Positions 14,767 through 29,440 of a DNA stretch of 50,852 nucleotides are shown here, one piece after another. The stretch is taken from positions 1-50,852 of the forward strand of contig JBHLRP010000022.1 of assembly GCA_048882485.1 (NCBI GenBank), given 5' to 3'. Positions within the stretch are counted from its first letter, which is position 1. Each line of letters begins with the position of its first letter. The DNA is from Candidatus Thorarchaeota archaeon. GTDB taxonomy: Archaea; Asgardarchaeota; Thorarchaeia; Thorarchaeales; Thorarchaeaceae. The notes under the pieces were generated by a model. That model had not been told where the DNA came from and searched no databases. It worked only from the letters and a program-made list of their open reading frames with translations. The position numbers and the translations under genes were made by a program.

Positions 14767-15519
14767 GTGATGATCACACAACTTCAAGAGCAGCTGTCAA
14801 TTGCATGTGAGAAGAAAAGCAGAGGCCTAGTCGAGGTGACTTTGCCACTGCAGGTCATGTTCAATAATCGAGACTGGAACATCGTCAAAGCACGGATTAG
14901 ATACACCGGCCCTGAGCGTGATGCTTGGCTCATCTTAATCGTCGGCCTTCGCAGTGATATTCTGTCGACATTTGATCGTTTTGAGGAGGACATTCCAGGC
15001 AGATACTTACCTTGTGATCTTCTTGGTCTTGTACCAGCTATCTCTCTCATGGCATCCTCATATAACAAGGGGCTAGCCGTGAGCGCGATTGCCCGAGATG
15101 ATGTCACCCGCCTGATCCTAGTGTTTGAGGGACAATCGAATAGAAGTGGCGGGTCTCTCAGGACTCTATCTACTTCCATCTGCAACTTCATGAAGAAGTG
15201 GGAGTCTTGGGTTGACGTACTGCTAGGGACGCTGAAGAGGGATCCGGTTATAGGTGATTGGAACACAGACATCCGAGAGTTTCTGGCCGGCGAGTCGGGC
15301 TATATTACGATGCCTTGGCACACTCCTATGTCTTATGCTGATCGCGCAGCATGCTTGGAGAGGATTGTTCTCGCATCAAATGCTCTGATGAGTTCAGTTC
15401 TTGGCAATGGTCAGCTGGTCGACCCGATGGTTGTTGGCTTGAGAGAGTGGCTGAATGAACTGAGAGCACTCCCCGAGGTTGTCAGCGGAATTAAGGTTGG
15501 AGAGGAGGTTCCGATATAA
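14767..15519 (+). CDS. Hypothetical protein, first gene of the recombination/membrane operon
   Basis: 250-aa ORF; TAATG coupling to the next gene, with GAGGAGGT RBS inside its 3' end. Confidence 0.75.
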   Translation: MMITQLQEQLSIACEKKSRGLVEVTLPLQVMFNNRDWNIVKARIRYTGPERDAWLILIVGLRSDILSTFDRFEEDIPGRYLPCDLLGLVPAISLMASSYNKGLAVSAIARDDVTRLILVFEGQSNRSGGSLRTLSTSICNFMKKWESWVDVLLGTLKRDPVIGDWNTDIREFLAGESGYITMPWHTPMSYADRAACLERIVLASNALMSSVLGNGQLVDPMVVGLREWLNELRALPEVVSGIKVGEEVPI

Positions 15520-15986
15520 TGCTTACAGATGAAGTACTGAAGAGGCATGCAATTTCTCCTGTGGACTTGCCCAGTGCGGCTTGGCTTGCGGGAGCTGCTG
15601 CAGGACTGGAGGTCAATAGTCATAGGAGTCCGCAGTGGTTGTGGGAGCCGTTTATTGAGGACTTGTTGGACCTATTGGTTCATCATGGCAATATTGAGCC
15701 AGCCGAACCGGGCACAAGCCCCAAGTTTGGTGATGGTGCAATAGGGTCTGCATATGATGCGTTGGGAGGGTATGTATCTATCAGTGGTGAATTCTGTCCT
15801 GAAGGTCTCTACTTCAAAGTGCCATTGAAGCGACAGGAAGCAGTGGCTAGATTGCTATCACCCAGTCATGCTTACATTTCTAGCGGTGAGATAGTGATTC
15901 CACCCCATGAGATTCCAGCGTTTCTCAGACTAGTCCCGATTCATGGTCCATTATCTGACACAATCGTTGAGGAGGCGTTGGTATGA
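15519..15986 (+). CDS. Hypothetical protein (possible degenerate LAGLIDADG-like fold)
   Basis: 155-aa ORF coupled on both sides (TAATG, ATGA); the family guess is weak. Confidence 0.7.
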   Translation: MLTDEVLKRHAISPVDLPSAAWLAGAAAGLEVNSHRSPQWLWEPFIEDLLDLLVHHGNIEPAEPGTSPKFGDGAIGSAYDALGGYVSISGEFCPEGLYFKVPLKRQEAVARLLSPSHAYISSGEIVIPPHEIPAFLRLVPIHGPLSDTIVEEALV

Positions 15987-17050
15987 CTGAGTTGGAAGGA
16001 GTGACTGGTGTTGGACCTGCTGCGGCAAAGAAGCTGAGGGAGGCATTTGTTACAACAGCTGAGTTGCTGGCAGTTCAGAATCCTGTTGAGCTGCAAAAGA
16101 AAACAAAGCTCGGGGAAGGCACTGTTGAAAAAATCATTCGAAACGCCAGAATCCTCCTGGGCATGCATGGCTTCAAGTCTGGCCTTGAGGTGGAGAAAGA
16201 GATGGAGTCCAAGTCCCGCCTCAAGACGGGCATTGAGAAAATGGACGAAGCACTCTTTGGAGGAATCGAAGTTGGCTCTATCGTTGAGTGTTATGGCCCT
16301 GCAAGAGGTGGGAAGACGCAATTTAGTGCGCATTTGGCAGTCCGTGCACAACTCCCGAGAGACCAAGGGGGCCTTGAAGGCAGAGTATTGTGGTTGGACA
16401 GCGAGTCATCATTCAAGCCCTATACTATCAGAGCCAATGCCATTCGATGGGGTCTTGATCCTGACATTACATTAGGCAATATAGGACGTGCAGAGGTCTT
16501 CCTCTCTGATCAGATTCAGGAGATATTCGAGTCCATTCCCCAACTCTGCAGCGAGCAAGACTATGTCTTGGTTGTCATTGACTCATTCACCGGGCTCTTC
16601 CGTGCGGAGTACACAGGTCTCGAATCCCTGAGAATCCGTCAGCAGGAGATGAATGCGCTTTTAAACCAAATGAGAAGGACCGCGAAGGCCACGGACGCTA
16701 TCTTTGTCTACACGAATCAAGTGATGTCTAAGATAAGCACCTACGGGGGGTATGATAATGCTCCAATAGGTGGCCATATACTCTCTCATGCTAGTGATTA
16801 CAGATTCTACACACGTAGGACAAAGGACGACAAACGAAAGCTACAACTGATAGACAATGCAGGGCTTCCTGAGTTCGATGTAGAGATGGTTGTGGGTTGG
16901 GGTGGAATGTATCCAGACTCAAAGAGCAAGAAGGAGAGCGAACCAGAGATTCTCGACTACTTTGAGAAACAGGGCGTCACTGAAGAGGAGACTGAGATTG
17001 AACTCGAGGAGGCTGAGGCGCCGCAGGCTAAGGCAGGTGAAGCTGGGTGA
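15983..17050 (+). CDS. radA: Full-length RadA/Rad51-like recombinase (divergent paralog)
   Basis: N-terminal HhH domain (GVGPAAAKKLREA), Walker A GPARGGKT, Walker B LVVIDS, FRAEY..G...RQQ, TNQV, PIGGHILSHA, acidic tail. Confidence 0.9.
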   Translation: MTELEGVTGVGPAAAKKLREAFVTTAELLAVQNPVELQKKTKLGEGTVEKIIRNARILLGMHGFKSGLEVEKEMESKSRLKTGIEKMDEALFGGIEVGSIVECYGPARGGKTQFSAHLAVRAQLPRDQGGLEGRVLWLDSESSFKPYTIRANAIRWGLDPDITLGNIGRAEVFLSDQIQEIFESIPQLCSEQDYVLVVIDSFTGLFRAEYTGLESLRIRQQEMNALLNQMRRTAKATDAIFVYTNQVMSKISTYGGYDNAPIGGHILSHASDYRFYTRRTKDDKRKLQLIDNAGLPEFDVEMVVGWGGMYPDSKSKKESEPEILDYFEKQGVTEEETEIELEEAEAPQAKAGEAG

Positions 17051-17490
17051 CCTCGGAGCGAGGAATGTTCAGAGTCTACCAGTGCCCCAGTTGCACCAAC
17101 ATAGGATACACAGCTGTCGAGAATGAGCAAGAGGAGTCAAGATGCAGCCTATGCAGGAGTCTGATTCTTCATGCACCTGGAACAATCTATGCAGTTACGA
17201 TTCAAGAAGCCCAAGCGAGTGTCCGTGAGCTTGTGATAGAATTGCGCCAGAATGCCAAACCCCGAGGGGGAGGGAGAGGCTTGGGCATTAAAAGGCGTGT
17301 CTACTATATCGTTGAAGCGCTAGTTGACCTCAACAGAGGGCGACCAGTTTCGATTGAAGATGTCATGAGAGAATGCAGCGATGCAGGCATCGATATCTCA
17401 CGTGCAATGACGTTCCTTGACTCCCTCGTTTCAGAGGGCGAGGTAATCAAGAACGGTGTGCTAGTCACCATTCCAATGGAGGCGTGGTAG
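17047..17490 (+). CDS. Zinc-ribbon plus winged-helix protein
   Basis: CPSC...CSLC at the N-terminus; C-terminal GRPVSIEDVMREC..AGI.....FLDSLVSEGEVI wHTH pattern; GTGA overlap with radA. Confidence 0.8.
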   Translation: MTSERGMFRVYQCPSCTNIGYTAVENEQEESRCSLCRSLILHAPGTIYAVTIQEAQASVRELVIELRQNAKPRGGGRGLGIKRRVYYIVEALVDLNRGRPVSIEDVMRECSDAGIDISRAMTFLDSLVSEGEVIKNGVLVTIPMEAW

Positions 17491-18117
17491 TTGACGGGTA
17501 TCGAGTCAGAGAGCAACTACGTCTGGGTTCCGCGAGCCCCACCAACTGTCGCAAATAACACAATGATCAATCTCGTGAATCTTCTCATGAGGGAAACGTC
17601 ACATCGAGTGACCGTCCTGGAGAAATGTGTAGGTCCAAATCCTGAGATCTATGTCGTCACTAGAGTCGAATGGAGAACCCCTGACCTCAGTAAACCGGTG
17701 CTGCCGCAACTTCCGAGACTGCTTTCTCTCCTTGAAACATTGAGAGGGACACAGGGAGTCCCTCATGAGATACATCTGGACAGCACTGAGGGAATTGCCG
17801 TCTATCTACCAACAGGAGTGAGAGTATCACAGTTGCCCAGCAAACCAAAGGAGGCAGTGCAATCTCTCACTGACCTAATTGAAAGCTCAGTAAGTCACAT
17901 GTACTCCACTAAGCGAGAGGTTGAAGCTTGGTTCTGGAAGATAGCTCGCCAGAAAGGGTTCAGTCCAGTGATTGTGGAGCGAATGGCAAACAAGGAAATA
18001 GGGTACAAATCGCCTTCATTGATGTGGCAGTTCCATCAGCTTCTGCGGAAGTACTTCTCTCTACGGTTCAGAATCCACACGAGTGAGTCCTGTCTACATC
18101 TGGAGGCTGATTATTGA
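17491..18117 (+). CDS. Hypothetical protein
   Basis: 208-aa ORF whose TTG abuts the previous stop, with GGAGG RBS; TTGA overlap with the next gene. Confidence 0.75.
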   Translation: MTGIESESNYVWVPRAPPTVANNTMINLVNLLMRETSHRVTVLEKCVGPNPEIYVVTRVEWRTPDLSKPVLPQLPRLLSLLETLRGTQGVPHEIHLDSTEGIAVYLPTGVRVSQLPSKPKEAVQSLTDLIESSVSHMYSTKREVEAWFWKIARQKGFSPVIVERMANKEIGYKSPSLMWQFHQLLRKYFSLRFRIHTSESCLHLEADY

Positions 18118-20069
18118 GTACTGCAGTTACTGATCCTCTCGCATGGTTTCCTTATACACCTAGACTGCATCAGGATAAGGCTGTGCGGTTTGCTGCTGAG
18201 GTCTTTTCGTCAAAGACAGTGGGATTGCTGTCTGCCGATTGCGGCGTCGGAAAAACCGTGGCTGTCCTTTCAGGATATCTTGCTGCAAGAGGTAGTGATT
18301 CGAGCTCAAGGTTGGTCGTGCTGACAAGAACTCACAGTCAGTCAAGGGTGTTCGAGATTGAACTTGACGTTCTGAGGGCAATGATGCCTGAACTTACAGC
18401 CACAACGATGGTGTCGAGGATCCATATGTGTCCAATTAGAAGCGAGATTGACTCCGACACCTCTACAGGCTTTATGCGAGCCTGTGCATCGATGATCAAG
18501 ACAGGGCAATGTACGTACTATCACAATGTCTATCGAAAGAACTCCAGCGATGGTCGAAGTGTCATCAGAGATTGGGTTCGAGAACGCGTTGAGGAATTGC
18601 TAAGCACTGGTGTTGTGACACGTGAAAGAGTGGAAGACCTCTGCAGTGCCGAAGGGGTGTGCCCATATGAAGTGATGCGCTGGTGTGCGAGACAGAGCAA
18701 GGTCATTATTGGACCATATAGCTACATGTTCAGGTCAAGGGTACGGGAGGCTCTTCTAACATCATTGGGAATCTCACTCCATGATGCTGACCTACTTGTT
18801 GATGAAGCCCACAACCTGTCAGACCATGCGCTCGACTCGGAAACAGCCAGGCTGAACGGTGAAGACCTCCGATGGCTAAGGGACCACAAATCAGAGATCG
18901 TCAAGGAAACCCGGATAAACTGGATTGGAGAGGCAGTGGACTTTCTTTACGAAACAATGATGCTCAATCTTGATGGGATGAACAGGAGATCAGAGCGTAC
19001 ACTCGCCAAGTGGGATGTGGCTCCGAGATTCATCAAAGAGTCTGATCTGCAGCTCATGCATGAAACTACTAGCCCCAGCATCGGTGATCCTGAGGTGGCT
19101 GTTTCAATGGAGACTCCCCTTGACAGGCTTGTTGAGTTCCTCTTTGTTGCCCAGCTGTCTACCAGAAGTGAAGGGTGGCATGTGACGCTTAACGTGAAAC
19201 GGTCCTGGGATGAAGCATTGACTGCCTCGAAAGCCACGCTAATGATTCGCCCACTAAACGCATCCGGTCTTACTGCACCGGTCCTCAGGGGTGCAAAATC
19301 TGCGCTGTTGATGTCCGGAACTCTGAGACCCCTAGAGCATTATGCAAGGCTATTGGGAGTTGGAGGTGCAATAACAGAGGACTTGGCAAGTCCATATCCG
19401 CGGTCGACTAGGCTAGTGCTCATTGATAGAGAGCTCACAACTAAGTACCAGGCAAGAAGTCCTGATCTCTGGCGTTCACTGGCTGATAGAATAAACACGG
19501 TACTCACAACGGTTCCCGCAAATAAGAGCGCGCTCATTGCATTTCCAAGTTACAAGATTCTTCATGAAGTCTTGAGCTACGGCATTGATTCTGGATATCG
19601 CGGAATACTCATCGAAGAGAGAGGAAACCGCATTGAGACTGTCGCAGAAGCTTTGGAAATTGGCCCTCACGCCATTTTCTGTGTCTTCGGTGGGAAATTC
19701 TCAGAAGGGGTCGATCTAGTGAAAGGCGGCTCTAGTATGATAGACTTGATTATTGGAGTCGGGATTCCCTTCTCCCCTCCTACTAGCTACCAAAGGGCAT
19801 TGCAGGAGTTCTATGATACTCGCTTTGGGGAAGGAGCTGGCTACTATTATGGAGCGTTAGTCCCATCTATTCGTCAGGTTGCCCAAGTTCTTGGTAGACT
19901 AAGGAGGTCACCTGAAGACTGGGGTGTTGTTGTTCTTTTAGACAAGCGCTTTCTCAAGCATGTCCGGGTGTTTGGTGATGATATGGTAGCTGACATCTGG
20001 CCCTTTGGTGATGTTGCTGAACTCAAGGCTGCCATTTCACAGTTCATAGCGTTAAGGGAGGGAAGCTGA
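18114..20069 (+). CDS. XPD/Rad3/DinG-family Fe-S SF2 DNA helicase
   Basis: Q motif FPYTPRLHQ, motif I ADCGVGKT, Ia TRTHSQ, four Fe-S Cys (HMCP, RAC, QCTYY, VCPYE), DEAH, MSGTL, SEGVD, QVLGRLRRS. Confidence 0.93.
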   Translation: MSTAVTDPLAWFPYTPRLHQDKAVRFAAEVFSSKTVGLLSADCGVGKTVAVLSGYLAARGSDSSSRLVVLTRTHSQSRVFEIELDVLRAMMPELTATTMVSRIHMCPIRSEIDSDTSTGFMRACASMIKTGQCTYYHNVYRKNSSDGRSVIRDWVRERVEELLSTGVVTRERVEDLCSAEGVCPYEVMRWCARQSKVIIGPYSYMFRSRVREALLTSLGISLHDADLLVDEAHNLSDHALDSETARLNGEDLRWLRDHKSEIVKETRINWIGEAVDFLYETMMLNLDGMNRRSERTLAKWDVAPRFIKESDLQLMHETTSPSIGDPEVAVSMETPLDRLVEFLFVAQLSTRSEGWHVTLNVKRSWDEALTASKATLMIRPLNASGLTAPVLRGAKSALLMSGTLRPLEHYARLLGVGGAITEDLASPYPRSTRLVLIDRELTTKYQARSPDLWRSLADRINTVLTTVPANKSALIAFPSYKILHEVLSYGIDSGYRGILIEERGNRIETVAEALEIGPHAIFCVFGGKFSEGVDLVKGGSSMIDLIIGVGIPFSPPTSYQRALQEFYDTRFGEGAGYYYGALVPSIRQVAQVLGRLRRSPEDWGVVVLLDKRFLKHVRVFGDDMVADIWPFGDVAELKAAISQFIALREGS

Positions 20070-20672
20070 ATGGCATGGTTCGAGCGATGGGAGATTAGAT
20101 GGATTGGCCTTGGCACATTGATACTTGCTGCGCTTCTGGGGCTTTGGGTGTCCTGGGGCAACATAATGGGGATTTTCCTGTCATCAATCAGCATACTATC
20201 TGCATTACTCTTGGCCCTAAGCTGGAGGAATAGCCAGCTGCCCATTATAATATGGGATGAACAGCGTGGCGTCCTTGCTATTCTATGGTCATTTACACTG
20301 GAGGTCATAGCAGGACGATTGATGACAAGCGTTCCTATTGGCATAGACCTTAGCCATTCAGCATCCAAAGTGCTTCGAGCTCTCCATGCGCGATATGATG
20401 GGAAGAAGAATGGAGAAGTTCGGTTCTTTATCTGCAGACCCACAGGCGATGGCATCACCCGTGCAGGGATGCTTGTTGCGAGAAGAGGCATTCGGTTCAT
20501 AGATGGGATAAAGAAGGCGTCTTCAATCGCAGATGAAATTGTCATTGACGCGGCAGTCCTTGAGAGTTCGATGAGAGCCGCCTATCCTCACATGCCTATT
20601 GATCTAGCAGGGTTGGATGATTTGCTGATGGTGACTTCAGGAGGTGTTGAGCCGTATGCTCAAGTCAGGTGA
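20070..20672 (+). CDS. Hypothetical membrane protein (N-terminal TM hairpin plus soluble domain)
   Basis: Two N-terminal hydrophobic helices; ATG abuts the helicase stop codon. Confidence 0.75.
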   Translation: MAWFERWEIRWIGLGTLILAALLGLWVSWGNIMGIFLSSISILSALLLALSWRNSQLPIIIWDEQRGVLAILWSFTLEVIAGRLMTSVPIGIDLSHSASKVLRALHARYDGKKNGEVRFFICRPTGDGITRAGMLVARRGIRFIDGIKKASSIADEIVIDAAVLESSMRAAYPHMPIDLAGLDDLLMVTSGGVEPYAQVR

Positions 20673-20958
20673 TAGGATAGCTATCGAGCTTCCATTTGGC
20701 GTGACACACGAAGCAGTGATGCATTCGCTTGAGATAGGCCATGGCTATAATTGGCTGGTGCTGACAAAAAGCCCGACGCTCGTTGCTCATGGATCATCAG
20801 ATCTCGGAAACATGCCAGAGATTCTTCTCGTTGGAGAGCATTTGCTCCTCGTGTCGGAATCAGACTTCGTATACGCAGAACGGTTGCAGCGTGTGCTTGA
20901 GATGCTGCGACGCCAGATAAAATCCATTTCAACAGCGGGAGGGACTTCGGTTGGGTAA
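20656..20958 (+). CDS. Small hypothetical protein
   Basis: ATG 20656 follows GGAGGTG RBS; overlaps both neighbours. Confidence 0.7.
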   Translation: MLKSGDRIAIELPFGVTHEAVMHSLEIGHGYNWLVLTKSPTLVAHGSSDLGNMPEILLVGEHLLLVSESDFVYAERLQRVLEMLRRQIKSISTAGGTSVG

Positions 20959-23308
20959 GCGTCTAATTCTCGGTACCGAGCCCGAAGTTGATCCACTAAA
21001 GGAGATCTCTCAACCCAGCATGACTGTGAGTGGTGGGATTGATCTTCAATGGGATGACCGCAGAGTGAAACCATCCCACGGTCGTGATGCAATCACGGCA
21101 ATCACCGTAGCAGTCATTCTCGCGGCACTGCCATGGAGTCTTGCTATGGTTTCCCTCGGAAGTTTCCTTGTTACGATACTAGTCCCCAAACTGAGGACCT
21201 CACAAGAGATTCGCTCCCTAGAAGAATCAGAATGGATTCGTGTTCCTGAGAGCGATACATCCTTTGCAGTGAATGAAGAACACAATGCCGTTCAGTGCAA
21301 AACGGCATCCGGCAATCGCAACGTGATAGGATTGGAGCTGCCATTGGCTGGTCCTCTATTAGTCGGAAATATGAGTGCACTCGTTAGAGCCATCGATAGC
21401 TCAAAGGGATTCTGTCTATCAGTGATAGCAAGAGCCGAAGAATCCTCCTCCATCGTGGAAGAAGAGCGTCTTTCTTCTCGATTGGATGGTTACTTGAACT
21501 ATCTATCAAGCGGTGGATTGGATGCCTATATGACCAGGCGCGGAGGCCTTTGGTCCGTCCGGGTTTCGATTATGGGGCACTCGCAGGATATCAATCAGGT
21601 TCAAAGATTCGAATCATCGATTAAGGCAGCTGTTCCGGATGGAAACTGGTCTAAAATGACGCCCAAATCTTTAGCTTCGAATATGCGGGCGATGAACATG
21701 GCGTTTCGGCTTCCATCATTCTATGCCGCCGGATCCGAACTCTCAGAGTGGTTAATACAGATTCCTAGTGAGCTTGCATCTGAGATTGGATCGAATGTTC
21801 CAGGTGAGTTCCTTGCACCCATAAAGCCCAGAGCAGGAGATTATTACATAGGCCGCGTGATAAATCCAGAAACCCTTCAGCCCGGACCTGCTGCTGGTCT
21901 ATCACACGAGGATATTCGATCCGGACTATTAGTTTGCGGAGGGACCATGGAGGAGCGAAGGCATACGATCACTCTGATTATGAGACAGCTTCTGTCACAT
22001 GGAAAGCGGGTCATTATTGTGAGTAGTGAACCTGATGCCAAGAATTTCGCATCTCTTTCTGAAGGTGCAGTATCATTTGAGCTTGGCAAGGATCTGGTAC
22101 TGAATCCTATGGACGCAGAAGGACTTCCAAGACATATCTATGTGTCCAAATTGATGACTGCTCTAGAGGTAATTGCGGGGACTGACCTTCGCGGTGCAAC
22201 TGACCTTGAACTTGCGATCAATCGTGCCATTGCATTAGGCAACACAACTGTGGCTGACGTTCAACTGACCCAGACACCAGATGTCATGGATACATATTCA
22301 GAGGCAGCAGAACAGAACGAACGAAAGCCATCTGATAGAAGTGTGTCAGGTTATGAAGCAATAAGGTCTCTACACCAAGGAACTGCGGCACGTTCCTTCT
22401 ATGGTTCTCAGACAATCGCTATGCGCGATCTGGCGCAGGCTAGCCTGGGCGTGTTGATTTTATCCCAAGGATATTTGCCAATGGAGAAATTCGCGTTCGA
22501 TCTTGTTTGCATCAAGCTCTCAGGACTCCAACAGGACCAAGATCTCGTTATCATACTCGAGAATGCAGAGAATATGAGAATTCGAAACCGGCGATATATG
22601 AAGAGGGACTCATGGAGTGAGATGATGCTTCGAGATCTGTTGCAAAGAGGTCCCACAATTGTCACGCTGGATCATCCAGTAGACATGTCCCCCGGTGCAA
22701 TTGGCAAATTGAACTCATGCATCACTCATCGACTTCGCGAGAGTCCGGATATTAAGACAGCCGTGGAATTGCTCGGCATCAGTGTCGTTTCGTCAGGCAT
22801 GCATAGTAAAGCCCGTCAATCATCCAGAGAAACATCATACCTGAGAGTAATGCCGGACGGAGTAGTCCTGTTGGTCCGAAACCAGGGCGAAACATGCATG
22901 CCTGTTGAGTTGGATGAAGCGGCCCCTCTTACTGGGCTTCACCCCGAGGAGATGGAGAGACGCATTTCTGATCTCATTCCTCAGGAGTTTCCCACTGAAG
23001 GAATGGCTTTTGGCGATTCACTGATTGATAGAGTCGCTGGAGGACAGAGAAATACAGCCATCAAGATGCTTCGACTGCTTGAGAGGTATGAACCACTGAC
23101 AGAGGAAGCAATGAGGAAATTCCTCCTTTCAGGAGATGGGAATGAGGATCCTGACATCAGTGGAGTACTTGCCAGGCTGGAGAAATCGGGCATGATACTT
23201 AGGGGTCATGAGGTCCATGGAGCGGTTTCGTATACAAACTACCGAATCACCATGAAGGGCAGCATGGCTCTTCATCAAGTTGCACAGAGGGATGAAGCAG
23301 AAAGATGA
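20951..23308 (+). CDS. Membrane-anchored HerA/VirB4/CedB-like protein with degenerate ATPase motifs and C-terminal winged helix
   Basis: N-terminal hydrophobic segment. HerA-like layout: IGRV...LSHEDIRSGLLVCGGTMEERR (Walker A position), LVLNPM, LVIILENAE (Walker B position), TLDHPVDM...LNSCITHRL...D, LRVMPDGVVLL. The C-terminus is wHTH-like (LARLEKSGMI...YRITMKG). Confidence 0.7.
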   Translation: MGKRLILGTEPEVDPLKEISQPSMTVSGGIDLQWDDRRVKPSHGRDAITAITVAVILAALPWSLAMVSLGSFLVTILVPKLRTSQEIRSLEESEWIRVPESDTSFAVNEEHNAVQCKTASGNRNVIGLELPLAGPLLVGNMSALVRAIDSSKGFCLSVIARAEESSSIVEEERLSSRLDGYLNYLSSGGLDAYMTRRGGLWSVRVSIMGHSQDINQVQRFESSIKAAVPDGNWSKMTPKSLASNMRAMNMAFRLPSFYAAGSELSEWLIQIPSELASEIGSNVPGEFLAPIKPRAGDYYIGRVINPETLQPGPAAGLSHEDIRSGLLVCGGTMEERRHTITLIMRQLLSHGKRVIIVSSEPDAKNFASLSEGAVSFELGKDLVLNPMDAEGLPRHIYVSKLMTALEVIAGTDLRGATDLELAINRAIALGNTTVADVQLTQTPDVMDTYSEAAEQNERKPSDRSVSGYEAIRSLHQGTAARSFYGSQTIAMRDLAQASLGVLILSQGYLPMEKFAFDLVCIKLSGLQQDQDLVIILENAENMRIRNRRYMKRDSWSEMMLRDLLQRGPTIVTLDHPVDMSPGAIGKLNSCITHRLRESPDIKTAVELLGISVVSSGMHSKARQSSRETSYLRVMPDGVVLLVRNQGETCMPVELDEAAPLTGLHPEEMERRISDLIPQEFPTEGMAFGDSLIDRVAGGQRNTAIKMLRLLERYEPLTEEAMRKFLLSGDGNEDPDISGVLARLEKSGMILRGHEVHGAVSYTNYRITMKGSMALHQVAQRDEAER

Positions 23309-25512
23309 CGGTTGTAGCTGATGTTCAGGAACAGGTGCATAGGCTTCTCCATCAGCTGGGTATTAAACCGAGAGGGATCCAGAAAACTTCGATTGAACGG
23401 GGCCTTCTGGATGGCGCAAGCATTTTGGTCTGCAGTCCAACTGGCTCTGGCAAGACATTGGTAGGTGAGATGGCTCTCCTTAGAGCAGCACTGACTGGAA
23501 AGAAGGGAATCTATCTAGTCCCTCTGAAGGCTCTCGCCGTGCAGGTGTCTGGAATTCTGATAGATAGGTATGAGCCTCTGGGCTTACGAATTGGTGTGAG
23601 TACAGGGGACTTTTCGAATGATGGTGAGAGTCTTTCGGACTATGATGTCATTGTGACAACATACGAGAAGGCGGATTCTTTGCTAAGACGAAAGACAGCC
23701 TGGCTCAATTCTATTGGCTCTCTAGTCATAGATGAGATTCAGACAATTTCTGATTCTGGAAGGGGTGCCCGTCTTGAATCCATTATAATCAGGTTTAAGC
23801 GAATGGTTGACGGCTTTCAGTTGATTGGGCTTTCAGCAACGGTTGGCTCACCAGATGAGCTGGCTGAGTGGCTTGGCTGTACTCTTGTTGAATCAGAAGA
23901 TCGTCCTGTGCCCTTGGTCTATCGTGTTATTCCTTCAAAACACAGGGAGCGAGTTCTTCGCCAACTGGTTATGACAACAGTGCAAGGCGATGGCCAGGCA
24001 ATTGTCTTTCATCGGACGAGACGCGAAGCTGAATCACAGGCTATACGTCTTTCAGGGGATGTTGGACGGCATTTCACTAGAATTGAAAAGGAAGATCTCG
24101 ACACAGAGCTTGAGTCAGTTGAGAATTGGAATGTCACTATACCGTCCGAACTCAGAACTCTTCTTCATGATGGCACAGCTTTTCATCATGCGGGTCTGGG
24201 AAATCGGGCTCGGCGGCTTGTTGAGGATTTATTTCTCCGGGGCAAAGTTCGAGTGATCTGCGCCACTACAACACTGGCGGCAGGGATGGACCTCCCCGCG
24301 AGGACAGTTGTTCTTACTAATGTGCGGTCTCCGGGAAATCACCGAGAAATGCTTCCTGCTAACTCCATTCATCAAATGCTAGGTCGAGCTGGTCGGCCTG
24401 GCTATGATACGACCGGGTTCGGGATTATTCTAGCTGGAAGCTCCGGAGAAGCTAAAGATGTTGAAAAGAGATACTTTCTTTCGTCATTGGATAATGAGTC
24501 GTCGACAAAAATCCTCTTTCCAAAATATGATCGTGTGATTAGCAAACTCGGCGAGTCAGCAACACTGACTGAGCAACTGCTCGTTGCACTTGATGCTTTG
24601 AATGAAGCAACCTTGGAAGACATTGCAGACGGTTTTCTGGGCGATTCCTACCTAGTGTTCACTGGAATAAGAGATACAAACTCTCCCATGCGAGTTATTC
24701 AGTTGGGTGATATAAGTGCGGAATCTGCAATCGAGAAGCATGCCTTATCAGACACTGTGCGTCCAGCTCGTCAAGGGCTCCTGGGGAGCATTAGCCTTAG
24801 GGAAACAAATGACAGTGTTATTGGTGGCATCGTAGCAGCATGGGAGGAAGGACACTATACCTGTAGGTATTCGGCCCGTCTTTCTGCTGATGGTGTTGTG
24901 GAGGGTCCGCAGTGCTCATGCTCTAGACCTATTGATAGGAATGGAGTTCTATGTTCTCACTTGGTTGCCCTGGGGCTGTATGCAGCAAGAGAGCTAGGCA
25001 GCCTTGCAGACTATGTAATTCCAGTCGCGCTGAGCGAGCTAAGTCCAAGTGAACTTCTCGTCAGGCTGGGCCTTATCGAGGGTGGAATAGAAGGAAAGAT
25101 GAAGCCTACACGATTGGGGCGGATTGTAAACCGGCTTTATCTCAGCATTCCAACAATTCGTGAGCTACTGGCAGTACTTCCAAAAATCGAGGAGAGCACA
25201 ACACTGCTATGGCTCTTGAAGCATCTGGTTTCAATCGAATCGGGGACTTCACTTGAGGATTCTTTCGAACATCTTATCGCTGCTGCAGCCACAACAGACA
25301 TTCCTCTCGAGGAGTTGGCCCGGAGTTCAGGATTTCATTTGGGTGATGCTTATGGACTACTGGAAGCCGCTCATTGGTTGCTTTACGCAATAGTTGCTGT
25401 GGCAGAGGTGGGGGGTTTGAAACAGCCAATGGCTGTTTCGCAGAGGTTGATGGAGGGACTAGAAACAAGACTTGCAGGAAGCAGGAAACAAGATTTTGGA
25501 GGCGCAAAATGA
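23305..25512 (+). CDS. Hel308/Ski2-like SF2 helicase with inserted SWIM zinc finger
   Basis: PRGIQ, SPTGSGKT, PLKALA, TYEKADS, IDEIQ, LSAT, RPVPL, FHHAGL, TTTLAAGMDLPA, QMLGRAGRPG; CSC-x10-CSH at 24913-24960. Confidence 0.92.
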   Translation: MTVVADVQEQVHRLLHQLGIKPRGIQKTSIERGLLDGASILVCSPTGSGKTLVGEMALLRAALTGKKGIYLVPLKALAVQVSGILIDRYEPLGLRIGVSTGDFSNDGESLSDYDVIVTTYEKADSLLRRKTAWLNSIGSLVIDEIQTISDSGRGARLESIIIRFKRMVDGFQLIGLSATVGSPDELAEWLGCTLVESEDRPVPLVYRVIPSKHRERVLRQLVMTTVQGDGQAIVFHRTRREAESQAIRLSGDVGRHFTRIEKEDLDTELESVENWNVTIPSELRTLLHDGTAFHHAGLGNRARRLVEDLFLRGKVRVICATTTLAAGMDLPARTVVLTNVRSPGNHREMLPANSIHQMLGRAGRPGYDTTGFGIILAGSSGEAKDVEKRYFLSSLDNESSTKILFPKYDRVISKLGESATLTEQLLVALDALNEATLEDIADGFLGDSYLVFTGIRDTNSPMRVIQLGDISAESAIEKHALSDTVRPARQGLLGSISLRETNDSVIGGIVAAWEEGHYTCRYSARLSADGVVEGPQCSCSRPIDRNGVLCSHLVALGLYAARELGSLADYVIPVALSELSPSELLVRLGLIEGGIEGKMKPTRLGRIVNRLYLSIPTIRELLAVLPKIEESTTLLWLLKHLVSIESGTSLEDSFEHLIAAAATTDIPLEELARSSGFHLGDAYGLLEAAHWLLYAIVAVAEVGGLKQPMAVSQRLMEGLETRLAGSRKQDFGGAK

Positions 25513-25513
25513 A

Positions 25514-27124
25514 ATGGCTATATCAAGTCGCGAAGGTCCACGTTCCGATGTGGGTGTTGGGGATGAAACTGAGGAGCCAAGTGGCGATCTTATTAGTGCT
25601 CTGAGAGCTTCGGGCCATTCTACTTGTGAATATCCAAACGGGCTAGTTAGTGCTGTTCGTTTGGAATCTATCCCTGGAACACGAGGTGTCCATGTGGAAG
25701 TTGTTCATGTTCTGGACTTGAGGACTGCTCGCTTCGGCAAAAGCGGGCTGGCTATGAGAGCCGCCCTCTTGGAGAGCGTCAATCGGGAGTTCGAAACTGT
25801 CTTACATGATGTTGGATTGGGAGATTATCTTGAACGAAGCGAGCTGAAGACTCCTCTTAATACTGTGTCACTACATATGCTACGAGGAAGCAAAGGCAGG
25901 AAGGCTTCATTGATTCATCCGACCAGAACAGTCTATGTTGTGACTAGGAATGTGAAGCCTACCATGGATCTGTCTTGGCTAACAGATTCAGGAAGACTGG
26001 TGACCATTGAGGAATTTGCTCTTGCGCGAAGAAGTGATGCGCGATCATTCTTGCCTGAAATCAAACATGCAGTGAGTCAGAAGAAGTGGTCTTCCTTGGA
26101 GCGTAGCATAAAGAGAGGATGGCTTGGAGTATTGGCTTTGGCTGCGTGTCTAATTGCAGTTGGTTCTACAGTCATTACCCAGCTTTCAATATCTGGCTCA
26201 ACTCTCCCATCAGTACTTACAGTGGTAGTGTCACTACTGACAGGTCTCTGGCTGCTTTCTAGTTCTACCAGCAATTTGAAGGAATTTGAGAATTCGGTAC
26301 GAGAAGAAGATGCGGTTCTCTCAACCCTTGGAGATTCGGCAAGAATTCAGCAATCCATAGAGTCCAACGAGGATAATCTTCGCCTACTAGGCGACATCAG
26401 CTTTGTTGTATCACCCCTTATGGCAAGTCTCGCAAACACCATCGAAGCTGGCTCTCTTCAAGAATCTATAGAAACCGCTTGTACAATACTGGATGAGTGT
26501 GTGCGGATGGCTCCCCTCAGGATTCAGGAAAAGAATTCCAAGGGAGCTGGAGATGAAGGTCTAGCACGATTTCTTGGCCTATTCGATGCTCTTGGAGTTC
26601 AAGTGGAAAAGGAATCACTTGCACTATCATACGTTGCGCTCACAGCTCACATCACGTCGCCTCTCAGTTTCGAGGATATGATACAGCATGTGGGTAGTCT
26701 GAGCTATGCCCTGTATAATGCTGGAGTTCTTCGACCTGACATAAAGGACATGGTTGATGACAAGGTCAACAATCGAGCAATGAAGAGGACGATTGACGCC
26801 ATTGATAAATCATTAGCTGAACCTGGCGAGCTCCATGCAGAACTACCATCAAGAACAGCAACCACCGAAAGACCAGAAGAAGACGATTCATCAAACGAGG
26901 AGGAGCTCGACCCGAATCTCCTCGATGCTATGTTGCACTCAACACTGAAAACTCAAGTTAATGAAATCCCAATAATAGCGGCTGAAGCAATAGATGAAAC
27001 CACACCAGAGGAAGAGATTCCCACTGGGGCAGATATTGTTGCTGCGAGCAATGCAGGTAAGGAGCCATCAAAGCTTGTTCAGGCTTCCCTATTCGACTTT
27101 GAGGAGGGAAGCTCTTCTGGTTAG
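25514..27124 (+). CDS. Hypothetical membrane protein (central 2-TM hairpin, acidic disordered tail, C-terminal PIP-box-like motif)
   Basis: ATG 25514 follows GGAGG; two hydrophobic helices mid-protein; ends ...VQASLFDFEEGSSSG. Confidence 0.75.
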   Translation: MAISSREGPRSDVGVGDETEEPSGDLISALRASGHSTCEYPNGLVSAVRLESIPGTRGVHVEVVHVLDLRTARFGKSGLAMRAALLESVNREFETVLHDVGLGDYLERSELKTPLNTVSLHMLRGSKGRKASLIHPTRTVYVVTRNVKPTMDLSWLTDSGRLVTIEEFALARRSDARSFLPEIKHAVSQKKWSSLERSIKRGWLGVLALAACLIAVGSTVITQLSISGSTLPSVLTVVVSLLTGLWLLSSSTSNLKEFENSVREEDAVLSTLGDSARIQQSIESNEDNLRLLGDISFVVSPLMASLANTIEAGSLQESIETACTILDECVRMAPLRIQEKNSKGAGDEGLARFLGLFDALGVQVEKESLALSYVALTAHITSPLSFEDMIQHVGSLSYALYNAGVLRPDIKDMVDDKVNNRAMKRTIDAIDKSLAEPGELHAELPSRTATTERPEEDDSSNEEELDPNLLDAMLHSTLKTQVNEIPIIAAEAIDETTPEEEIPTGADIVAASNAGKEPSKLVQASLFDFEEGSSSG

Positions 27125-27803
27125 CGAATACAGCCTTCGAACATCATTGAAGCTCGGAGGTATTATCCATTTCATAGGACCTGCAGGATCCGGCAAGACG
27201 TTGCTAGCGGCGACTATCGCGGCAGATGCATCTCGGACATCTCACGTGGAATGGATAAATGCTGACTCAAAGAAACGGTTCATACCTCATCTGAAGGCAA
27301 CAGTCAAGCATCTCAGGGGGGTGGAGAGTAACGTGTCTGTTATGATGACGAAAGGTCACAAACAGACATTGGATGCTTTGTTAAAATTGAGAACTACGAT
27401 AACACCAGACACGTCTCTAATTGTCATTGACCCTATTACAAGGGTGCTTGACATGTCAAGAAATGATCCCATCCTTTGGGGGCGATTACTAATAGAAGAG
27501 GCACTGCCCACACTAGGAGCATTATCTTGGGAAAGAGGCATAGATATCATTGTTGTAAGTGAGATGAGATTTCTTCATGAGATTGGCAATCATCCAGTGT
27601 TTTCTAATGAAATAGCAAAATGGGCAGATACTACTATCAAGGTTTGCAGGGATATTTCCAGCAAATCGTCATCTGTTTCAATTGTGGAGAATGGTGATGA
27701 TCGCAAAATCGCACAGCTCCGAGTCCTACAAAACGGAGCTTGCCATCTGTCTCTTTCACATCACCGAGGAGTGGTCACGAATTGCTTGGAAGAGGAATTC
27801 TGA
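26994..27803 (+). CDS. RadB/Rad51-paralog-like RecA-fold ATPase without N-terminal HhH domain (true start probably near 27117)
   Basis: Walker A GPAGSGKT, WINADS..F, Walker B LIVIDPIT, IIVVSEMR, KWADTTIKV; GAGGAGG at 27101 suggests a later start. Confidence 0.85.
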   Translation: MKPHQRKRFPLGQILLLRAMQVRSHQSLFRLPYSTLRREALLVSEYSLRTSLKLGGIIHFIGPAGSGKTLLAATIAADASRTSHVEWINADSKKRFIPHLKATVKHLRGVESNVSVMMTKGHKQTLDALLKLRTTITPDTSLIVIDPITRVLDMSRNDPILWGRLLIEEALPTLGALSWERGIDIIVVSEMRFLHEIGNHPVFSNEIAKWADTTIKVCRDISSKSSSVSIVENGDDRKIAQLRVLQNGACHLSLSHHRGVVTNCLEEEF

Positions 27804-28729
27804 AGATTATCGGTTTGGCGATAGCAGGAGCAATGGCTTTAGCGGGTGGTGCCCAGTTGCTCTCATCAGTGGCACTTGTGGTTATTTCCTTCAGAAGCGG
27901 GAATATCATCCCCCTGATCATTGCCATAGGCACAACAGCGGCATTGATTCATCTGAAACGACTATTTACCAAACATGCACTATCTGCAATTCTAGGGATA
28001 CTTGCTTATGCAGCCTCGGGATATCTTGCCGTGGTCGCATTCGTTGGACTGTTGCCTTATGGGATGATTTCATCCCTATTGGGTGCCGCACTAACGATTA
28101 TTGCATGTTCGGTGATGTATGACCCAAGCAACCTGAAAGAATGGATGGCAACATTGTCCCCCGACTCGTCAATATCGTGGCTGAGCAGAGACCCAGGAAC
28201 ACCTGAGTTTTCGATAGGCAAGGAAGTTTCACACCATATTGCACTACTCCCGTCTGAAAGCCGAGAGAAGGTCATCATGCTGATGAGAGACCGACCACTT
28301 CTACCAATTTCACTGACTCACTTCAATGAATGCGACGCGCTCTTCATTGACCTAAAGTCTGAGAGGATAAATTTGAACCAGATCAGAGATGCTCTCTTTA
28401 GAGCAAACGTGGCAATCAAGAATGATGCATCACCACTCTTGCGGGAGGCAATTCTCAAGGTCCCTATTATTGATGAAAAACATGGCCTTTCGATGGCAGA
28501 ATACTGTTTAGCTACTGATCAGGAAACTGTTAATCAGCTAATACGGAATCCCCCTTCACGCATGTTTGTTTTCCCTAGTAGAACCGGTCCCAGAGTCATC
28601 TATCCTGAATCGGCAGCACCAGGTCTAATATCTCAAAGAGTTCCTGAAAGCGAACTTGTCAATGCACTATTGCTTCACAGATATACCACTCTTAAGGAGG
28701 CCAATGACACCTTTGCGAATGCCACTTGA
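27782..28729 (+). CDS. Hypothetical membrane protein (about 4 N-terminal TM helices plus soluble domain)
   Basis: TTG 27782 follows GAGGAG; the first ~110 aa are hydrophobic. Confidence 0.75.
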   Translation: MLGRGILKIIGLAIAGAMALAGGAQLLSSVALVVISFRSGNIIPLIIAIGTTAALIHLKRLFTKHALSAILGILAYAASGYLAVVAFVGLLPYGMISSLLGAALTIIACSVMYDPSNLKEWMATLSPDSSISWLSRDPGTPEFSIGKEVSHHIALLPSESREKVIMLMRDRPLLPISLTHFNECDALFIDLKSERINLNQIRDALFRANVAIKNDASPLLREAILKVPIIDEKHGLSMAEYCLATDQETVNQLIRNPPSRMFVFPSRTGPRVIYPESAAPGLISQRVPESELVNALLLHRYTTLKEANDTFANAT

Positions 28730-29429
28730 TTCACTAAATGTCAATTCACGATCCGAAATCTCGCTTGCCCCGAAGCAACTTGATGACTTGCTAGGAAACA
28801 TTCTTGCACGCGAACAACTAAGCCTCTTTCATGGCCCTGAGCGATCTCCTCTTACGTCTCTCGCCCACGCCATATCAATTGCCGCAGCTGAACTAGGTGA
28901 GGGACATGCGGTCTATATTGATTCAGGGTCAAATTACAGTCCCACTTTAGCTCGAGCAATGTGCAATTCAAAGAGAAGGGTGTCAAAGATACTCAGCCGC
29001 GTTATTGTCGGGAATGTATTGAGTCTTTCAGACTTGGAGAATCTCAGTAAAAGCATTCCAAACTTGGGCCCTGTATCTATAATATTGCTCGACAGCCTGA
29101 CGGGAGTTCTGAATCTTTCTGGAGCTCCAGGAAGTGCAGGGAGGCAAAGAGAGCTCTTTCATTGTCTTGAGGTCTTGAGGGAACTAGTAAATGAGATTGG
29201 AACTCATCTTTTGATGACAGACCATTCTTCAAGAAGCTGGAATTCAGATCAATCTATACCCATTGGTGGTAATGTTCTTGCTCATGCTGTTGATTCTGTA
29301 GTGAGAGTTGATCGACTGGACGTGGGGAAGAATCTGATTCGTATATTGGTCGAGCGCAGCACACTAGGTTCTGAATCGCAAGCATTGATTCTAGTGGAAG
29401 GAAAGAAAGGTCTGCGTACCTTCAGATAG
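28704..29429 (+). CDS. RecA/Rad51-paralog-like protein with degenerate Walker A
   Basis: ATG 28704 follows GGAGG. QLDDLLG, GPERSPLT in place of GxxxxGKT, VYIDSG, ILLDSLT, RQREL, PIGGNVLAHAVD. Confidence 0.85.
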   Translation: MTPLRMPLDSLNVNSRSEISLAPKQLDDLLGNILAREQLSLFHGPERSPLTSLAHAISIAAAELGEGHAVYIDSGSNYSPTLARAMCNSKRRVSKILSRVIVGNVLSLSDLENLSKSIPNLGPVSIILLDSLTGVLNLSGAPGSAGRQRELFHCLEVLRELVNEIGTHLLMTDHSSRSWNSDQSIPIGGNVLAHAVDSVVRVDRLDVGKNLIRILVERSTLGSESQALILVEGKKGLRTFR

Positions 29430-29440
29430 CGGTGATTCCT

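What the first reader, a model, noticed from the sequence alone, without database searches (positions are those of the whole stretch)
20951..23308. Membrane-anchored HerA/VirB4-like pseudo-ATPase with winged-helix tail
Seen: the spacing of HerA/VirB4 elements is kept but the catalytic residues are changed. The Walker A position reads CGGTMEERR (21935-21961), Walker B reads ILENAE instead of DEAH/EEAH, the R-finger region reads LRDLLQRG instead of ExRKxG, and TQ is replaced by LDHP. There is an N-terminal membrane segment and a C-terminal wHTH. Inference: a catalytically dead ring or scaffold, so any DNA movement would have to be powered by another enzyme, plausibly the two helicases flanking it in the operon (XPD-type 5'-3', Hel308-type 3'-5').
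Basis: partly seen in the sequence, partly recalled or inferred. Interest (0 to 1): 0.75.

Follow-up and report, generated by a model that had tools for sequence, protein, structure and literature searches.

The report
Membrane-anchored ATP-dead VirB4-like protein
This Thorarchaeota (Asgard) gene encodes a membrane-anchored protein with the fold of VirB4, the motor of bacterial DNA-transfer machines. Every relative examined lacks the ATP-splitting residues, and the gene sits beside a dedicated helicase in a recombination operon, so it is probably a passive docking hub for DNA handling at the membrane.

Summary
ORF 20951-23308 (785 aa) has a two-helix membrane hairpin, a VirB4-type N-terminal domain, a VirB4/HerA ATPase fold and a PadR-like winged-helix tail. 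The fold match to VirB4 4ag5 is Z 28.2, rmsd 2.8 Å over 326 residues. A profile alignment to a canonical ATPase from the same genome places CGGTMEERR on the Walker A loop. Arg336 takes the lysine position, and the glycine and threonine are missing. In Walker B the first acid survives (E537), but the catalytic glutamate is Asn538.

This is ancient, not recent decay. All 155 aligned relatives, down to about 20% identity, lack the lysine, and 154 have Arg there. Strong family matches occur in many Asgard families. The gene overlaps a Hel308-like helicase gene by ATGA. A Hel308-like gene lies next to or near the family member in 13 of 14 related loci.

My best reading (about 0.55) is a non-hydrolysing membrane platform for a DNA-exchange and recombination machine driven by other ATPases. 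Ring assembly, DNA binding and loss of nucleotide binding are all unproven. No paper in the searched library describes the family. This scan has already flagged and followed up the same family on other Asgard genomes, with similar conclusions.

The parts
20937..20943 (+). Shine-Dalgarno-like GGGAGGG, 7 nt upstream of the TTG start
   Evidence: Read directly from the sequence
20951..23308 (+). Gene for the 785-aa VirB4-like pseudo-ATPase (TTG start, TGA stop)
   Evidence: 116 homologues at 38-93% identity and about 780 aa. No Pfam or NCBIfam hit.
20951..21079 (+). Conserved cytoplasmic N-terminal tail (residues 1-43; D14, P15 and R37 invariant; G8, P11 and W34 nearly so)
   Evidence: Alignment A1. 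Low model confidence. Role unknown; possibly a docking peptide.
21086..21193 (+). Two-helix transmembrane hairpin (residues 46-81)
   Evidence: Hydropathy. Model helices 44-59 and 61-92. The columns are hydrophobic but variable in all orthologues. Basic residues flank both ends, which fits both termini being cytoplasmic (inference).
21248..21730 (+). VirB4-type alpha/beta N-terminal domain (residues about 100-260)
   Evidence: Full-length TrwK/VirB4 aligns from model residue about 100-103 to about 675, Z 20.6 over 487 aa. In other Asgard lineages this part is a separate upstream membrane protein (hhalign E 4e-6 and 1.5e-5).
21812..22933 (+). VirB4/HerA-fold RecA-like domain (residues 288-661), catalytically degenerate
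   Evidence: 4ag5 Z 28.2, rmsd 2.8 Å over 326 aa. hhalign probability 98.1% to the canonical paralogue. HMM hits to HerA structures.
21935..21961 (+). Remnant of Walker A: CGGTMEERR. R336 sits at the Lys position, E335 at the Gly position and R337 at the Thr position.
   Evidence: for the mapping; 154 of 155 relatives have Arg and none has Lys; G330 and G331 are nearly invariant.
22553..22570 (+). Remnant of Walker B: ILENAE. The first acid E537 is kept and the catalytic Glu is replaced by N538.
   Evidence: Position 537 is D or E in 148 of 160. Position 538 is G/E/D/N/S/T, with Glu in only 25 of 160.
22637..22678 (+). LLQRG...TLDHP region, the counterpart of HerA GRKyG...sQrP. R566, G567 and P576 are conserved, and the sensor Gln position is D574.
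22802..22846 (+). Family-specific conserved basic segment HSKARQSSRETSYLR (R622 in 159 of 160). The stretch up to RQSSR has no counterpart in the canonical paralogue.
   Evidence: gap in P0186. Low pLDDT at 613-620. Role unknown; a DNA- or partner-contacting loop is only an inference.
23018..23305 (+). C-terminal PadR-like winged helix (residues 690-785), with the conserved motif LLERYEPLT
23305..23308 (+). ATGA overlap: the stop of this gene overlaps the start of the Hel308-like helicase gene
   Evidence: The same abutting or overlapping arrangement is seen in orthologous loci.
23305..25512 (+). Hel308-like SF2 helicase, a dedicated paralogue and the most consistently linked neighbour
   Evidence: A second Hel308-like gene elsewhere in the genome is 38% identical. 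Linked in 13 of 14 related loci.
20070..20672 (+). 200-aa membrane protein (two TM helices plus an alpha/beta domain), conserved upstream neighbour
   Evidence: Homology to the N-terminal domain of the main protein is not established.
20644..20958 (+). 104-aa protein whose gene end overlaps the start of the main gene by 8 nt
   Evidence: No family hit.
18114..20069 (+). XPD/Rad3-type helicase of the same operon
   Evidence: Syntenic in Thor-type loci.

Best explanation
The gene encodes a non-hydrolysing descendant of a VirB4-type ATPase (FtsK-HerA superfamily). A two-helix hairpin tethers it to the cytoplasmic face of the membrane.

Proposed mechanism. It acts as an assembly and docking platform beneath the operon's membrane proteins, probably as an oligomer as VirB4, CedB and CedD are. 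It holds DNA or a partner through its C-terminal winged helix and a family-specific basic loop. It positions the co-translated Hel308-like helicase. In Thorarchaeota it also brings in XPD, a divergent RadA, two RadA paralogues and a FEN1/XPG-like nuclease. DNA entering or leaving through the membrane complex would then be unwound, trimmed and recombined on site. The energy would come from those other NTPases, not from this protein.

Shown here: the fold, the membrane hairpin, the winged helix, family-wide absence of the Walker A Lys, Gly and Thr, general loss of the catalytic Glu, purifying conservation, and gene linkage.

Inferred: oligomeric ring, loss of nucleotide binding, DNA binding, helicase docking, and the direction and nature of DNA traffic.
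For: Fold: VirB4 4ag5 Z 28.2; full-length TrwK Z 20.6 including the N-terminal domain; Foldseek E 1.5e-13. ESM Atlas neighbours are all DUF87/HerA_C clusters.

Homology by sequence profile: hhalign 98.1% to the genome's own canonical DUF87 ATPase; HerA structures at E 3.5e-9.

Dead site:
- R336, E335 and R337 occupy the Lys, Gly and Thr positions.
- None of 155 relatives has Lys, and 154 have Arg.
- Three regex Walker A hits lie outside the P-loop and are chance matches.
- The catalytic Glu is kept in only 25 of 160.
- The model starts the helix at residue 333, which shortens the loop.

Under selection: about 90 invariant columns among 30 orthologues at 37-78% identity, including the remnant P-loop.

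Distribution: the family profile matched 371 of 400 Asgard genomes at E <= 1e-5, but weak matches can be canonical DUF87 paralogues. Matches at E < 1e-60 occur in many Asgard families. By my hand count, 31 of 40 near-complete genomes of the window's family have a strong match.

Linkage:
- ATGA overlap with the Hel308-like gene.
- All 15 genes are syntenic at 38-42% identity of this protein.
- The Hel308-like gene directly follows in 10 of 10 other Thor-type loci.
- A Hel308-like gene lies within about 5 kb in three non-Thor Asgard loci, and two of those also carry an XPG-like gene.

The operon has four membrane proteins and no intact FtsK/HerA/VirB4/VirD4-class ATPase. Its RadA and Hel308 are second copies.

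Precedents:
- RvhB4-II is a conserved VirB4 paralogue lacking the ATPase active sites (PMC4676284).
- CedB and CedD are VirB4/HerA-like proteins essential for archaeal DNA import. [quoted passage not shown]
- Ted loci also carry repair genes (PMC9905601).
Against: No oligomer, DNA binding or helicase contact has been shown.

The invariant Arg at the Lys position, the 93% conserved Walker B acid and the retained R594/D600 motif could mean the pocket still binds a nucleotide or another phosphate ligand.

No VirB2-like pilin or clear VirB6-like channel was identified in the operon.

The gene is missing from 9 of 40 near-complete genomes of the same family, so it is dispensable.

One distant relative (P0145) is followed by an intact HerA-like ATPase rather than a helicase.

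The genome has two canonical DUF87 ATPases elsewhere that could supply activity in trans.
Confidence: 0.55

Rival explanations
1. Nucleotide-binding, non-hydrolysing switch. The rewritten P-loop (GGxxxxR) still binds ATP, ADP or another phosphate ligand. It would then regulate assembly or gating of the complex, as the degenerate FtsK-like domains of type VII secretion EccC/EssC are thought to do (own knowledge, not checked here).
For: R336 is invariant, G330 and G331 are nearly invariant, and the Walker B acid is D or E in 148 of 160. The R594...D600 motif is retained. The remnant P-loop is among the best conserved parts of the protein.
Against: The second P-loop glycine is replaced by S/E/D/Q in most members, which puts a side chain, often acidic, where phosphates bind. 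The Mg-binding Thr/Ser position is variable (R/L/M/F/H). The model converts part of the loop into helix.
Confidence: 0.2
2. Inactive subunit of a mixed ring. It co-assembles with an active HerA/VirB4-type ATPase encoded elsewhere, which does the pumping. The genome has canonical DUF87 proteins of 1257 aa and 1019 aa.
For: The distant relative P0145 is directly followed by an intact HerA-like ATPase (GIPKTGKS, LEEAH). The window's genome has two canonical paralogues. One of them, P0186, also has N-terminal TM segments and shares the linker motif.
Against: The canonical paralogues are on other contigs and are not linked to the operon. Weak profile matches of the kind given by this genome's canonical DUF87 paralogues are the only hits in genomes that lack a strong family match. 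Thor-type operons never include one.
Confidence: 0.1
3. Membrane-tethered DNA-binding regulator or sensor. The PadR-like winged helix controls transcription of the operon, and the dead ATPase fold is a sensor or oligomerisation module.
For: The C-terminal domain is PadR/MarR-like. The protein is membrane-anchored.
Against: The large VirB4 body is kept intact over deep time. The gene is translationally coupled in the middle of a 15-gene operon rather than standing apart. Winged helices are also common DNA-handling tails; the FtsK gamma domain is an example (own knowledge).
Confidence: 0.07
4. Component of an anti-virus defence system of the HerA-plus-effector type, as in Sir2-HerA, DUF4297-HerA and TdpAB.
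For: Many structural neighbours are defence HerA proteins. The gene has a patchy presence within the family. The neighbouring helicases resemble HamB and type IV-A DinG models.
Against: The protein itself has no PADLOC hit, and the helicase hits are generic superfamily matches. Defence HerA proteins are active ATPases. The chromosomal context is conserved (GH3 gene upstream in three of five loci with upstream context). The gene set is recombinase-rich, with no Sir2-, DUF4297- or HamA-type effector found.
Confidence: 0.06

Closest known systems
VirB4 / TrwK / TrbE, the inner-membrane ATPase of type IV secretion (PDB 4ag5, 7o43, 8rtd)
   Same: Same two-domain architecture, an alpha/beta N-terminal domain followed by a RecA-like C-terminal domain. 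Best structural match: Z 28.2 for the C-terminal domain and Z 20.6 for the full length. Located at the membrane. Belongs to the FtsK-HerA superfamily.
   Different: Lacks the Walker A Lys, Gly and Thr and the catalytic Glu. Has its own N-terminal TM hairpin, where bacterial systems use VirB3. Has a C-terminal PadR-like winged helix and a family-specific basic insert. Gives no Pfam VirB4 or DUF87 hit. The neighbours are recombination enzymes, not VirB2-B11.
CedB/CedD (Sulfolobales Ced DNA import) and TedB (Thermoproteales)
   Same: Archaeal VirB4/HerA-like proteins that work with membrane proteins to move chromosomal DNA for repair. [quoted passage not shown] Ted loci also carry repair genes. 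Sources: PMC11868833 and PMC9905601.
   Different: CedB is thought to power DNA translocation (PMC9905601). This protein cannot hydrolyse ATP by the canonical mechanism. No CedA1/TedC-type pilin was recognised here.
RvhB4-II of the Rickettsiales vir homologue T4SS
   Same: A strictly conserved, full-size VirB4 paralogue with defective ATPase active sites. It is proposed to assemble into the machine without supplying energy (PMC4676284).
   Different: It is bacterial, sits beside an active RvhB4-I paralogue in a protein-secreting T4SS, and has no winged-helix tail. The loss is very probably independent.
HerA (archaeal HerA-NurA end-resection translocase, and defence HerA proteins)
   Same: Same ATPase fold (Z 20-24). 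Detectable by sequence profile (8xau E 3.5e-9). Linked to DNA repair.
   Different: HerA has a HAS-barrel N-terminal domain, is soluble and is an active hexameric translocase paired with NurA or an effector. None of this applies here.

Membership tests
VirB4-type ATPases (FtsK-HerA superfamily) | RecA-like P-loop core fold of the VirB4 C-terminal domain | tested here: met
   4ag5 Z 28.2, rmsd 2.8 Å, 326 aa. Foldseek E 1.5e-13.
VirB4-type ATPases (FtsK-HerA superfamily) | VirB4-type N-terminal domain preceding the ATPase domain | tested here: met
   TrwK chains align over model residues 100-675 (483-487 aa, Z 18.5-20.6)
VirB4-type ATPases (FtsK-HerA superfamily) | Walker A GxxxxGK[ST] | tested here: not met
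   The sequence is GGTMEERR, with Arg at the Lys position. None of 155 relatives has Lys.
VirB4-type ATPases (FtsK-HerA superfamily) | Walker B hhhhD/E followed by the catalytic Glu | tested here: not met
   The first acid E537 is kept, but the catalytic position is N538. Glu is present there in 25 of 160 relatives.
VirB4-type ATPases (FtsK-HerA superfamily) | Match to curated family models (Pfam DUF87, CagE_TrbE_VirB, HerA_C; NCBIfam) | tested here: not met
   No Pfam or NCBIfam hit at E <= 0.01. Homology is seen only by profile-profile and profile-PDB searches.
VirB4-type ATPases (FtsK-HerA superfamily) | Hexameric (or hexamer-of-dimers) assembly | not testable with these tools
   The one complex job, two copies of residues 288-665, returned no verdict
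Type IV secretion / Ced-Ted type DNA-transfer systems | Co-encoded VirB2-like pilin and VirB6-like polytopic channel | tested here: inconclusive
   The operon has four membrane proteins (200 aa, this protein, 550 aa, 329 aa). The three other than this protein have no Pfam hit. Only the 200-aa one was modelled, and it had no informative match.
CedB/CedD-like archaeal DNA-import ATPases | TM segment plus VirB4-like NTD plus HerA/VirB4-like C-terminal domain | tested here: met
   Architecture, compared with the description in PMC11868833. Direct sequence or structure comparison with Ced proteins was not done.
CedB/CedD-like archaeal DNA-import ATPases | Required for DNA import; induced by DNA damage | not testable with these tools
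   Needs genetics or expression data from an Asgard culture
PadR-like winged helix-turn-helix | Three helices plus a beta-hairpin wing, with profile similarity to PadR/MarR | tested here: met
   Model elements H700-713, H718-727, H736-745, E749-756 and E759-766. 3l7w at E 8e-4, further PadR chains at E 0.2-0.9. Pfam HTH_34 at 1.3e-5 and PadR at 1.1e-4 in relatives.

The most novel reading that the evidence does not exclude
The protein is the cytoplasmic hub of an undescribed, Asgard-wide machine for exchanging chromosomal DNA across the membrane. The machine would derive from a type IV secretion-like ancestor. The VirB4 motor has been silenced and its job handed to a dedicated Hel308-type SF2 helicase. 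The incoming or outgoing strand would pass straight to a private set of RadA-family recombinases and a FEN1-like nuclease. [quoted passage not shown]
Probability: 0.3. Interest if true: 0.85.

Novelty: new variant of a known kind. Interest (0 to 1): 0.65.

Why it matters
VirB4 is the one universal motor of conjugation-type machines. The archaeal Ced and Ted systems show that such machines were domesticated for repair by DNA import. Here a whole family has the motor fold kept under selection while the motor chemistry was removed, apparently before the Asgard classes diverged. The family stays tied to a Hel308-like helicase and to membrane proteins, and in Thorarchaeota also to a duplicate recombination toolkit.

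This points to a membrane-bound DNA-handling apparatus that nobody has described, in the lineage closest to eukaryotes. It offers a concrete, testable entry point to how these organisms exchange or repair DNA. It is also a clean natural case for studying what a P-loop ring does once it can no longer burn ATP.

Tried and rejected
- Pfam, NCBIfam and PADLOC scans of the protein gave nothing.
- The full-length family profile against PDB sequences gave only noise. The ATPase-domain profile was needed.
- Complex prediction with two copies of residues 288-665 scored 0.00 and returned no verdict. It says nothing either way about ring formation.
- I tested the idea that the 200-aa upstream membrane protein is a paralogue of this protein's TM plus N-terminal module:
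  - hhalign gave only a 27-column match around the shared ES..(R/K)(A/G)A.P helix, at probability 1.3%.
  - Its model (pLDDT 72.9) has the same order of strands and helices, but no informative PDB match.
  - The idea stays open and is not supported.
- hhalign for a winged helix in the C-terminal extension of the canonical paralogue P0186 was weak (probability 4.9%, E 0.008).
- Three relatives matched a Walker A regular expression. All three matches lie outside the P-loop position and are chance.
- A recent-decay or pseudogene reading is rejected. The frame is intact, the remnant motif is invariant, and the loss is family-wide.
- Seven literature searches for an Asgard VirB4/HerA-like inactive protein or this operon found no description. 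One look-up (P0171) found no encoding contig.
Full report
**What is there**

The window comes from a Thorarchaeota (Asgard) genome; source names on homologues say so. ORF 20951-23308 on the + strand is intact and 785 aa long. It starts at TTG, 7 nt after GGGAGGG. Pfam, NCBIfam and PADLOC give no hit. A word-index search found 116 homologues at 38-93% identity, nearly all about 780 aa, and the named ones are labelled Thorarchaeota or other Asgard taxa. An exhaustive phmmer search found 73 cluster representatives, including relatives at 21-29% identity.

**Fold and domains**

An AlphaFold2 model built on 30 diverse orthologues (mean pLDDT 77.9) shows these parts in order:
- a short conserved N-terminal tail;
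- two long helices that cover the hydrophobic stretch 46-81;
- an alpha/beta domain at about 100-260;
- a very conserved but poorly modelled linker at 261-297;
- a RecA-like domain at 288-661;
- a helix-helix-helix-wing domain at 690-785.

Foldseek against the PDB puts TrwK/VirB4 first, at E 1.5e-13 over about 700 columns, followed by HerA, TrwB and other VirB4 chains. VIA-align gives these scores:
- VirB4 of T. pseudethanolicus: Z 28.2, rmsd 2.8 Å over 326 residues (model 288-661).
- DndH C-terminal domain: Z 25.
- HerA: Z 24.
- TrwB: Z 22.
- Full-length TrwK: Z 20.6 over 487 residues (model 103-675). So the N-terminal domain is VirB4-like as well.

The nearest ESM Atlas clusters are all DUF87/HerA_C. 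The tail matches PadR-family winged helices: 3l7w at E 8e-4, and weak PadR/HTH_34/MarR hits in relatives.

**The catalytic motifs**

The same genome encodes two canonical DUF87 ATPases. One of them, P0186, has N-terminal TM segments, GATGTGKT and LEEA. hhalign of the family profile against P0186 gives probability 98.1% and E 7e-14 over 352 columns. It aligns LLVCGGTMEERR with VAVLGATGTGKT. This maps:
- G330 to the first Walker A glycine;
- E335 to the second glycine;
- R336 to the lysine;
- R337 to the threonine.

It also aligns VIILENAEN with LVVLEEASN, so E537 is the first Walker B acid and N538 sits where the catalytic glutamate should be.

The family profile hits solved HerA proteins directly (8xau at E 3.5e-9, YjgR at 3e-8, Sso HerA at 7.5e-5). 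That alignment sets LQRG on GRKyG, LDHP on sQrP, and R594...D600 on the retained R...D motif. One nuance applies: Walker B has lost its catalytic Glu, not its first acid.

**Not recent decay**

I aligned all retrieved relatives to the domain HMM and counted residues at each motif position.
- Lys position: Arg in 154 of 155, Val in one, Lys in none.
- Second-glycine position: S/E/D/Q/A.
- Thr position: variable.
- G330 and G331: nearly invariant.
- First Walker B acid: D or E in 148 of 160.
- Catalytic position: Glu in only 25 of 160.

Three Walker A-like strings elsewhere in three proteins are chance matches. The 30-sequence alignment has about 90 invariant columns. There is also a family-specific basic segment, HSKARxSxRESSYLR. 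Its R622 is present in 159 of 160, and the stretch up to RQSSR has no counterpart in the canonical paralogue. This is a gene under purifying selection whose ATP chemistry was rewritten long ago.

**Distribution and forms**

The domain profile matched 371 of 400 Asgard-phylum genomes at E <= 1e-5. Weak matches can be canonical DUF87 paralogues, so that figure overstates the family. Strong matches (E < 1e-60) occur in many families, with open frames of about 540, about 780 and about 1260-1320 aa.

In two non-Thor lineages the roughly 530-aa form lacks the front part. The gene just upstream encodes a membrane protein that aligns to residues 47-243 of this protein (hhalign E 4e-6 and 1.5e-5). The Thor protein is therefore the fused version of this pair.

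Within the window's own family, my hand count from the table finds a strong match in 31 of 40 genomes at least 90% complete. The gene is common but dispensable.

**Context**

The gene lies in a 15-gene co-directional operon at 14767-30433. The operon encodes:
- a divergent RadA;
- an XPD helicase;
- this protein;
- a Hel308-like helicase;
- a Walker A-positive RecA/KaiC-like protein;
- a Walker A-less Rad51-like protein;
- a FEN1/XPG-like nuclease;
- four membrane proteins, counting this one;
- several small proteins of unknown function.

No intact FtsK/HerA/VirB4/VirD4-class ATPase is present in the operon. The genome has a better-scoring RadA and further Hel308-like genes elsewhere, so this set is a second toolkit.

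The stop of this gene overlaps the Hel308-like start as ATGA. All 15 genes are syntenic in two genomes where this protein is only 38-42% identical. There this protein, the 550-aa membrane protein and the small proteins have diverged more than the enzymes: RadA is 55-68% identical, XPD 55-63% and the Hel308-like helicase 52-59%.

The Hel308-like gene directly follows in all ten other Thor-type loci checked, including one where this protein is only 25% identical. In three non-Thor loci a Hel308-like gene lies within about 5 kb. Two of those also have an XPG-like nuclease and a run of small membrane proteins. The exception is a distant relative followed by an intact HerA-like ATPase.

**Interpretation**

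What is shown: a membrane-anchored VirB4-fold protein, with a winged-helix tail, that cannot carry out canonical P-loop hydrolysis. It is kept under selection and tied to a dedicated Hel308-like helicase and membrane proteins.

The most economical mechanism is a passive platform at the membrane. It is probably an oligomer, as its active relatives are. It would organise a DNA-handling complex whose energy comes from the helicases and RecA-family proteins.

Published parallels:
- CedB and CedD are VirB4/HerA-like proteins essential for DNA import in Sulfolobales. [quoted passage not shown]
- Ted loci carry repair genes (PMC9905601).
- RvhB4-II is a conserved VirB4 paralogue without ATPase active sites (PMC4676284).

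What is not shown: ring formation (the complex job gave no verdict), loss of nucleotide binding, DNA binding, any protein contact, and the direction of DNA traffic. The invariant Arg336 together with the conserved Walker B acid may form a salt bridge that fills the empty site. They may instead still bind a phosphate ligand. Sequence alone cannot separate these two possibilities.

**Novelty**

Seven full-text searches found no description of this family or operon. Notes from this scan show that the same family was flagged and followed up on other Asgard genomes, with similar conclusions. I used two of those notes as leads, the split form and CedD, and checked both myself. I class the gene as a new variant of a known kind, a VirB4-type protein turned pseudo-ATPase. 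The machine it belongs to may be more novel than the gene itself.

Noticed in passing
G000 contig C21:20428-24201 (L021:8429-12202) and C57 (L022:6876-9935, - strand): The same genome has two canonical DUF87/HerA-type proteins of 1257 aa and 1019 aa. The 1257-aa one has N-terminal TM segments, an intact GATGTGKT/LEEA pair and a long C-terminal extension, and sits next to an Ig-like surface protein. These may belong to a separate membrane ATPase system.
   Followed up: partly
window 20070-20672: The 200-aa upstream membrane protein has two TM helices. Its alpha/beta domain has the same strand and helix order as the N-terminal module of the main protein, and it shares an ES..(R/K)(A/G)A.P helix end. 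Neither hhalign (probability 1.3%) nor Foldseek confirms homology.
   Followed up: yes
window 22802-22846 (residues 618-632): A conserved basic segment, HSKARQSSRETSYLR (R622 in 159 of 160 relatives). The stretch up to RQSSR has no counterpart in the canonical paralogue, and part of it is poorly modelled. It is a candidate DNA- or partner-contact loop.
   Followed up: partly
window 21731-21841 (residues 261-297): This is the most conserved stretch of the protein (ELSEWLxQxPSELAxExGxNxPGEFxxP), yet residues 270-284 have pLDDT below 50. A similar QLP...VPxxFxxP linker is present in the canonical paralogue P0186.
   Followed up: no
L004:12547-14931: In an unrelated metagenome contig, a distant member of the pseudo-ATPase family (P0145, 847 aa) is directly followed by an intact HerA-like ATPase (GIPKTGKS, LEEAH). 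This may be an inactive/active pair.
   Followed up: partly
L025:8458-12243 (G268) and similar loci of family f22: Forms of the family about 1260-1320 aa long, with several TM segments, have NGTFQNRE at the P-loop position. They sit beside TM proteins and a helix-hairpin-helix membrane protein, with a Hel308-like gene about 4.5 kb away.
   Followed up: partly
window 15983-17050 and 28656-29429; G000 C45:20722-21438: The operon's RadA scores far lower against the Rad51 model than a second RadA on contig C45 (188 versus 319 bits). The operon therefore carries a divergent extra recombinase, plus a Rad51-like protein without a Walker A motif.
   Followed up: partly
table, family f1: The gene has no strong match in 9 of 40 near-complete genomes of the same family, including several of the same genus. 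The cassette is optional.
   Followed up: partly
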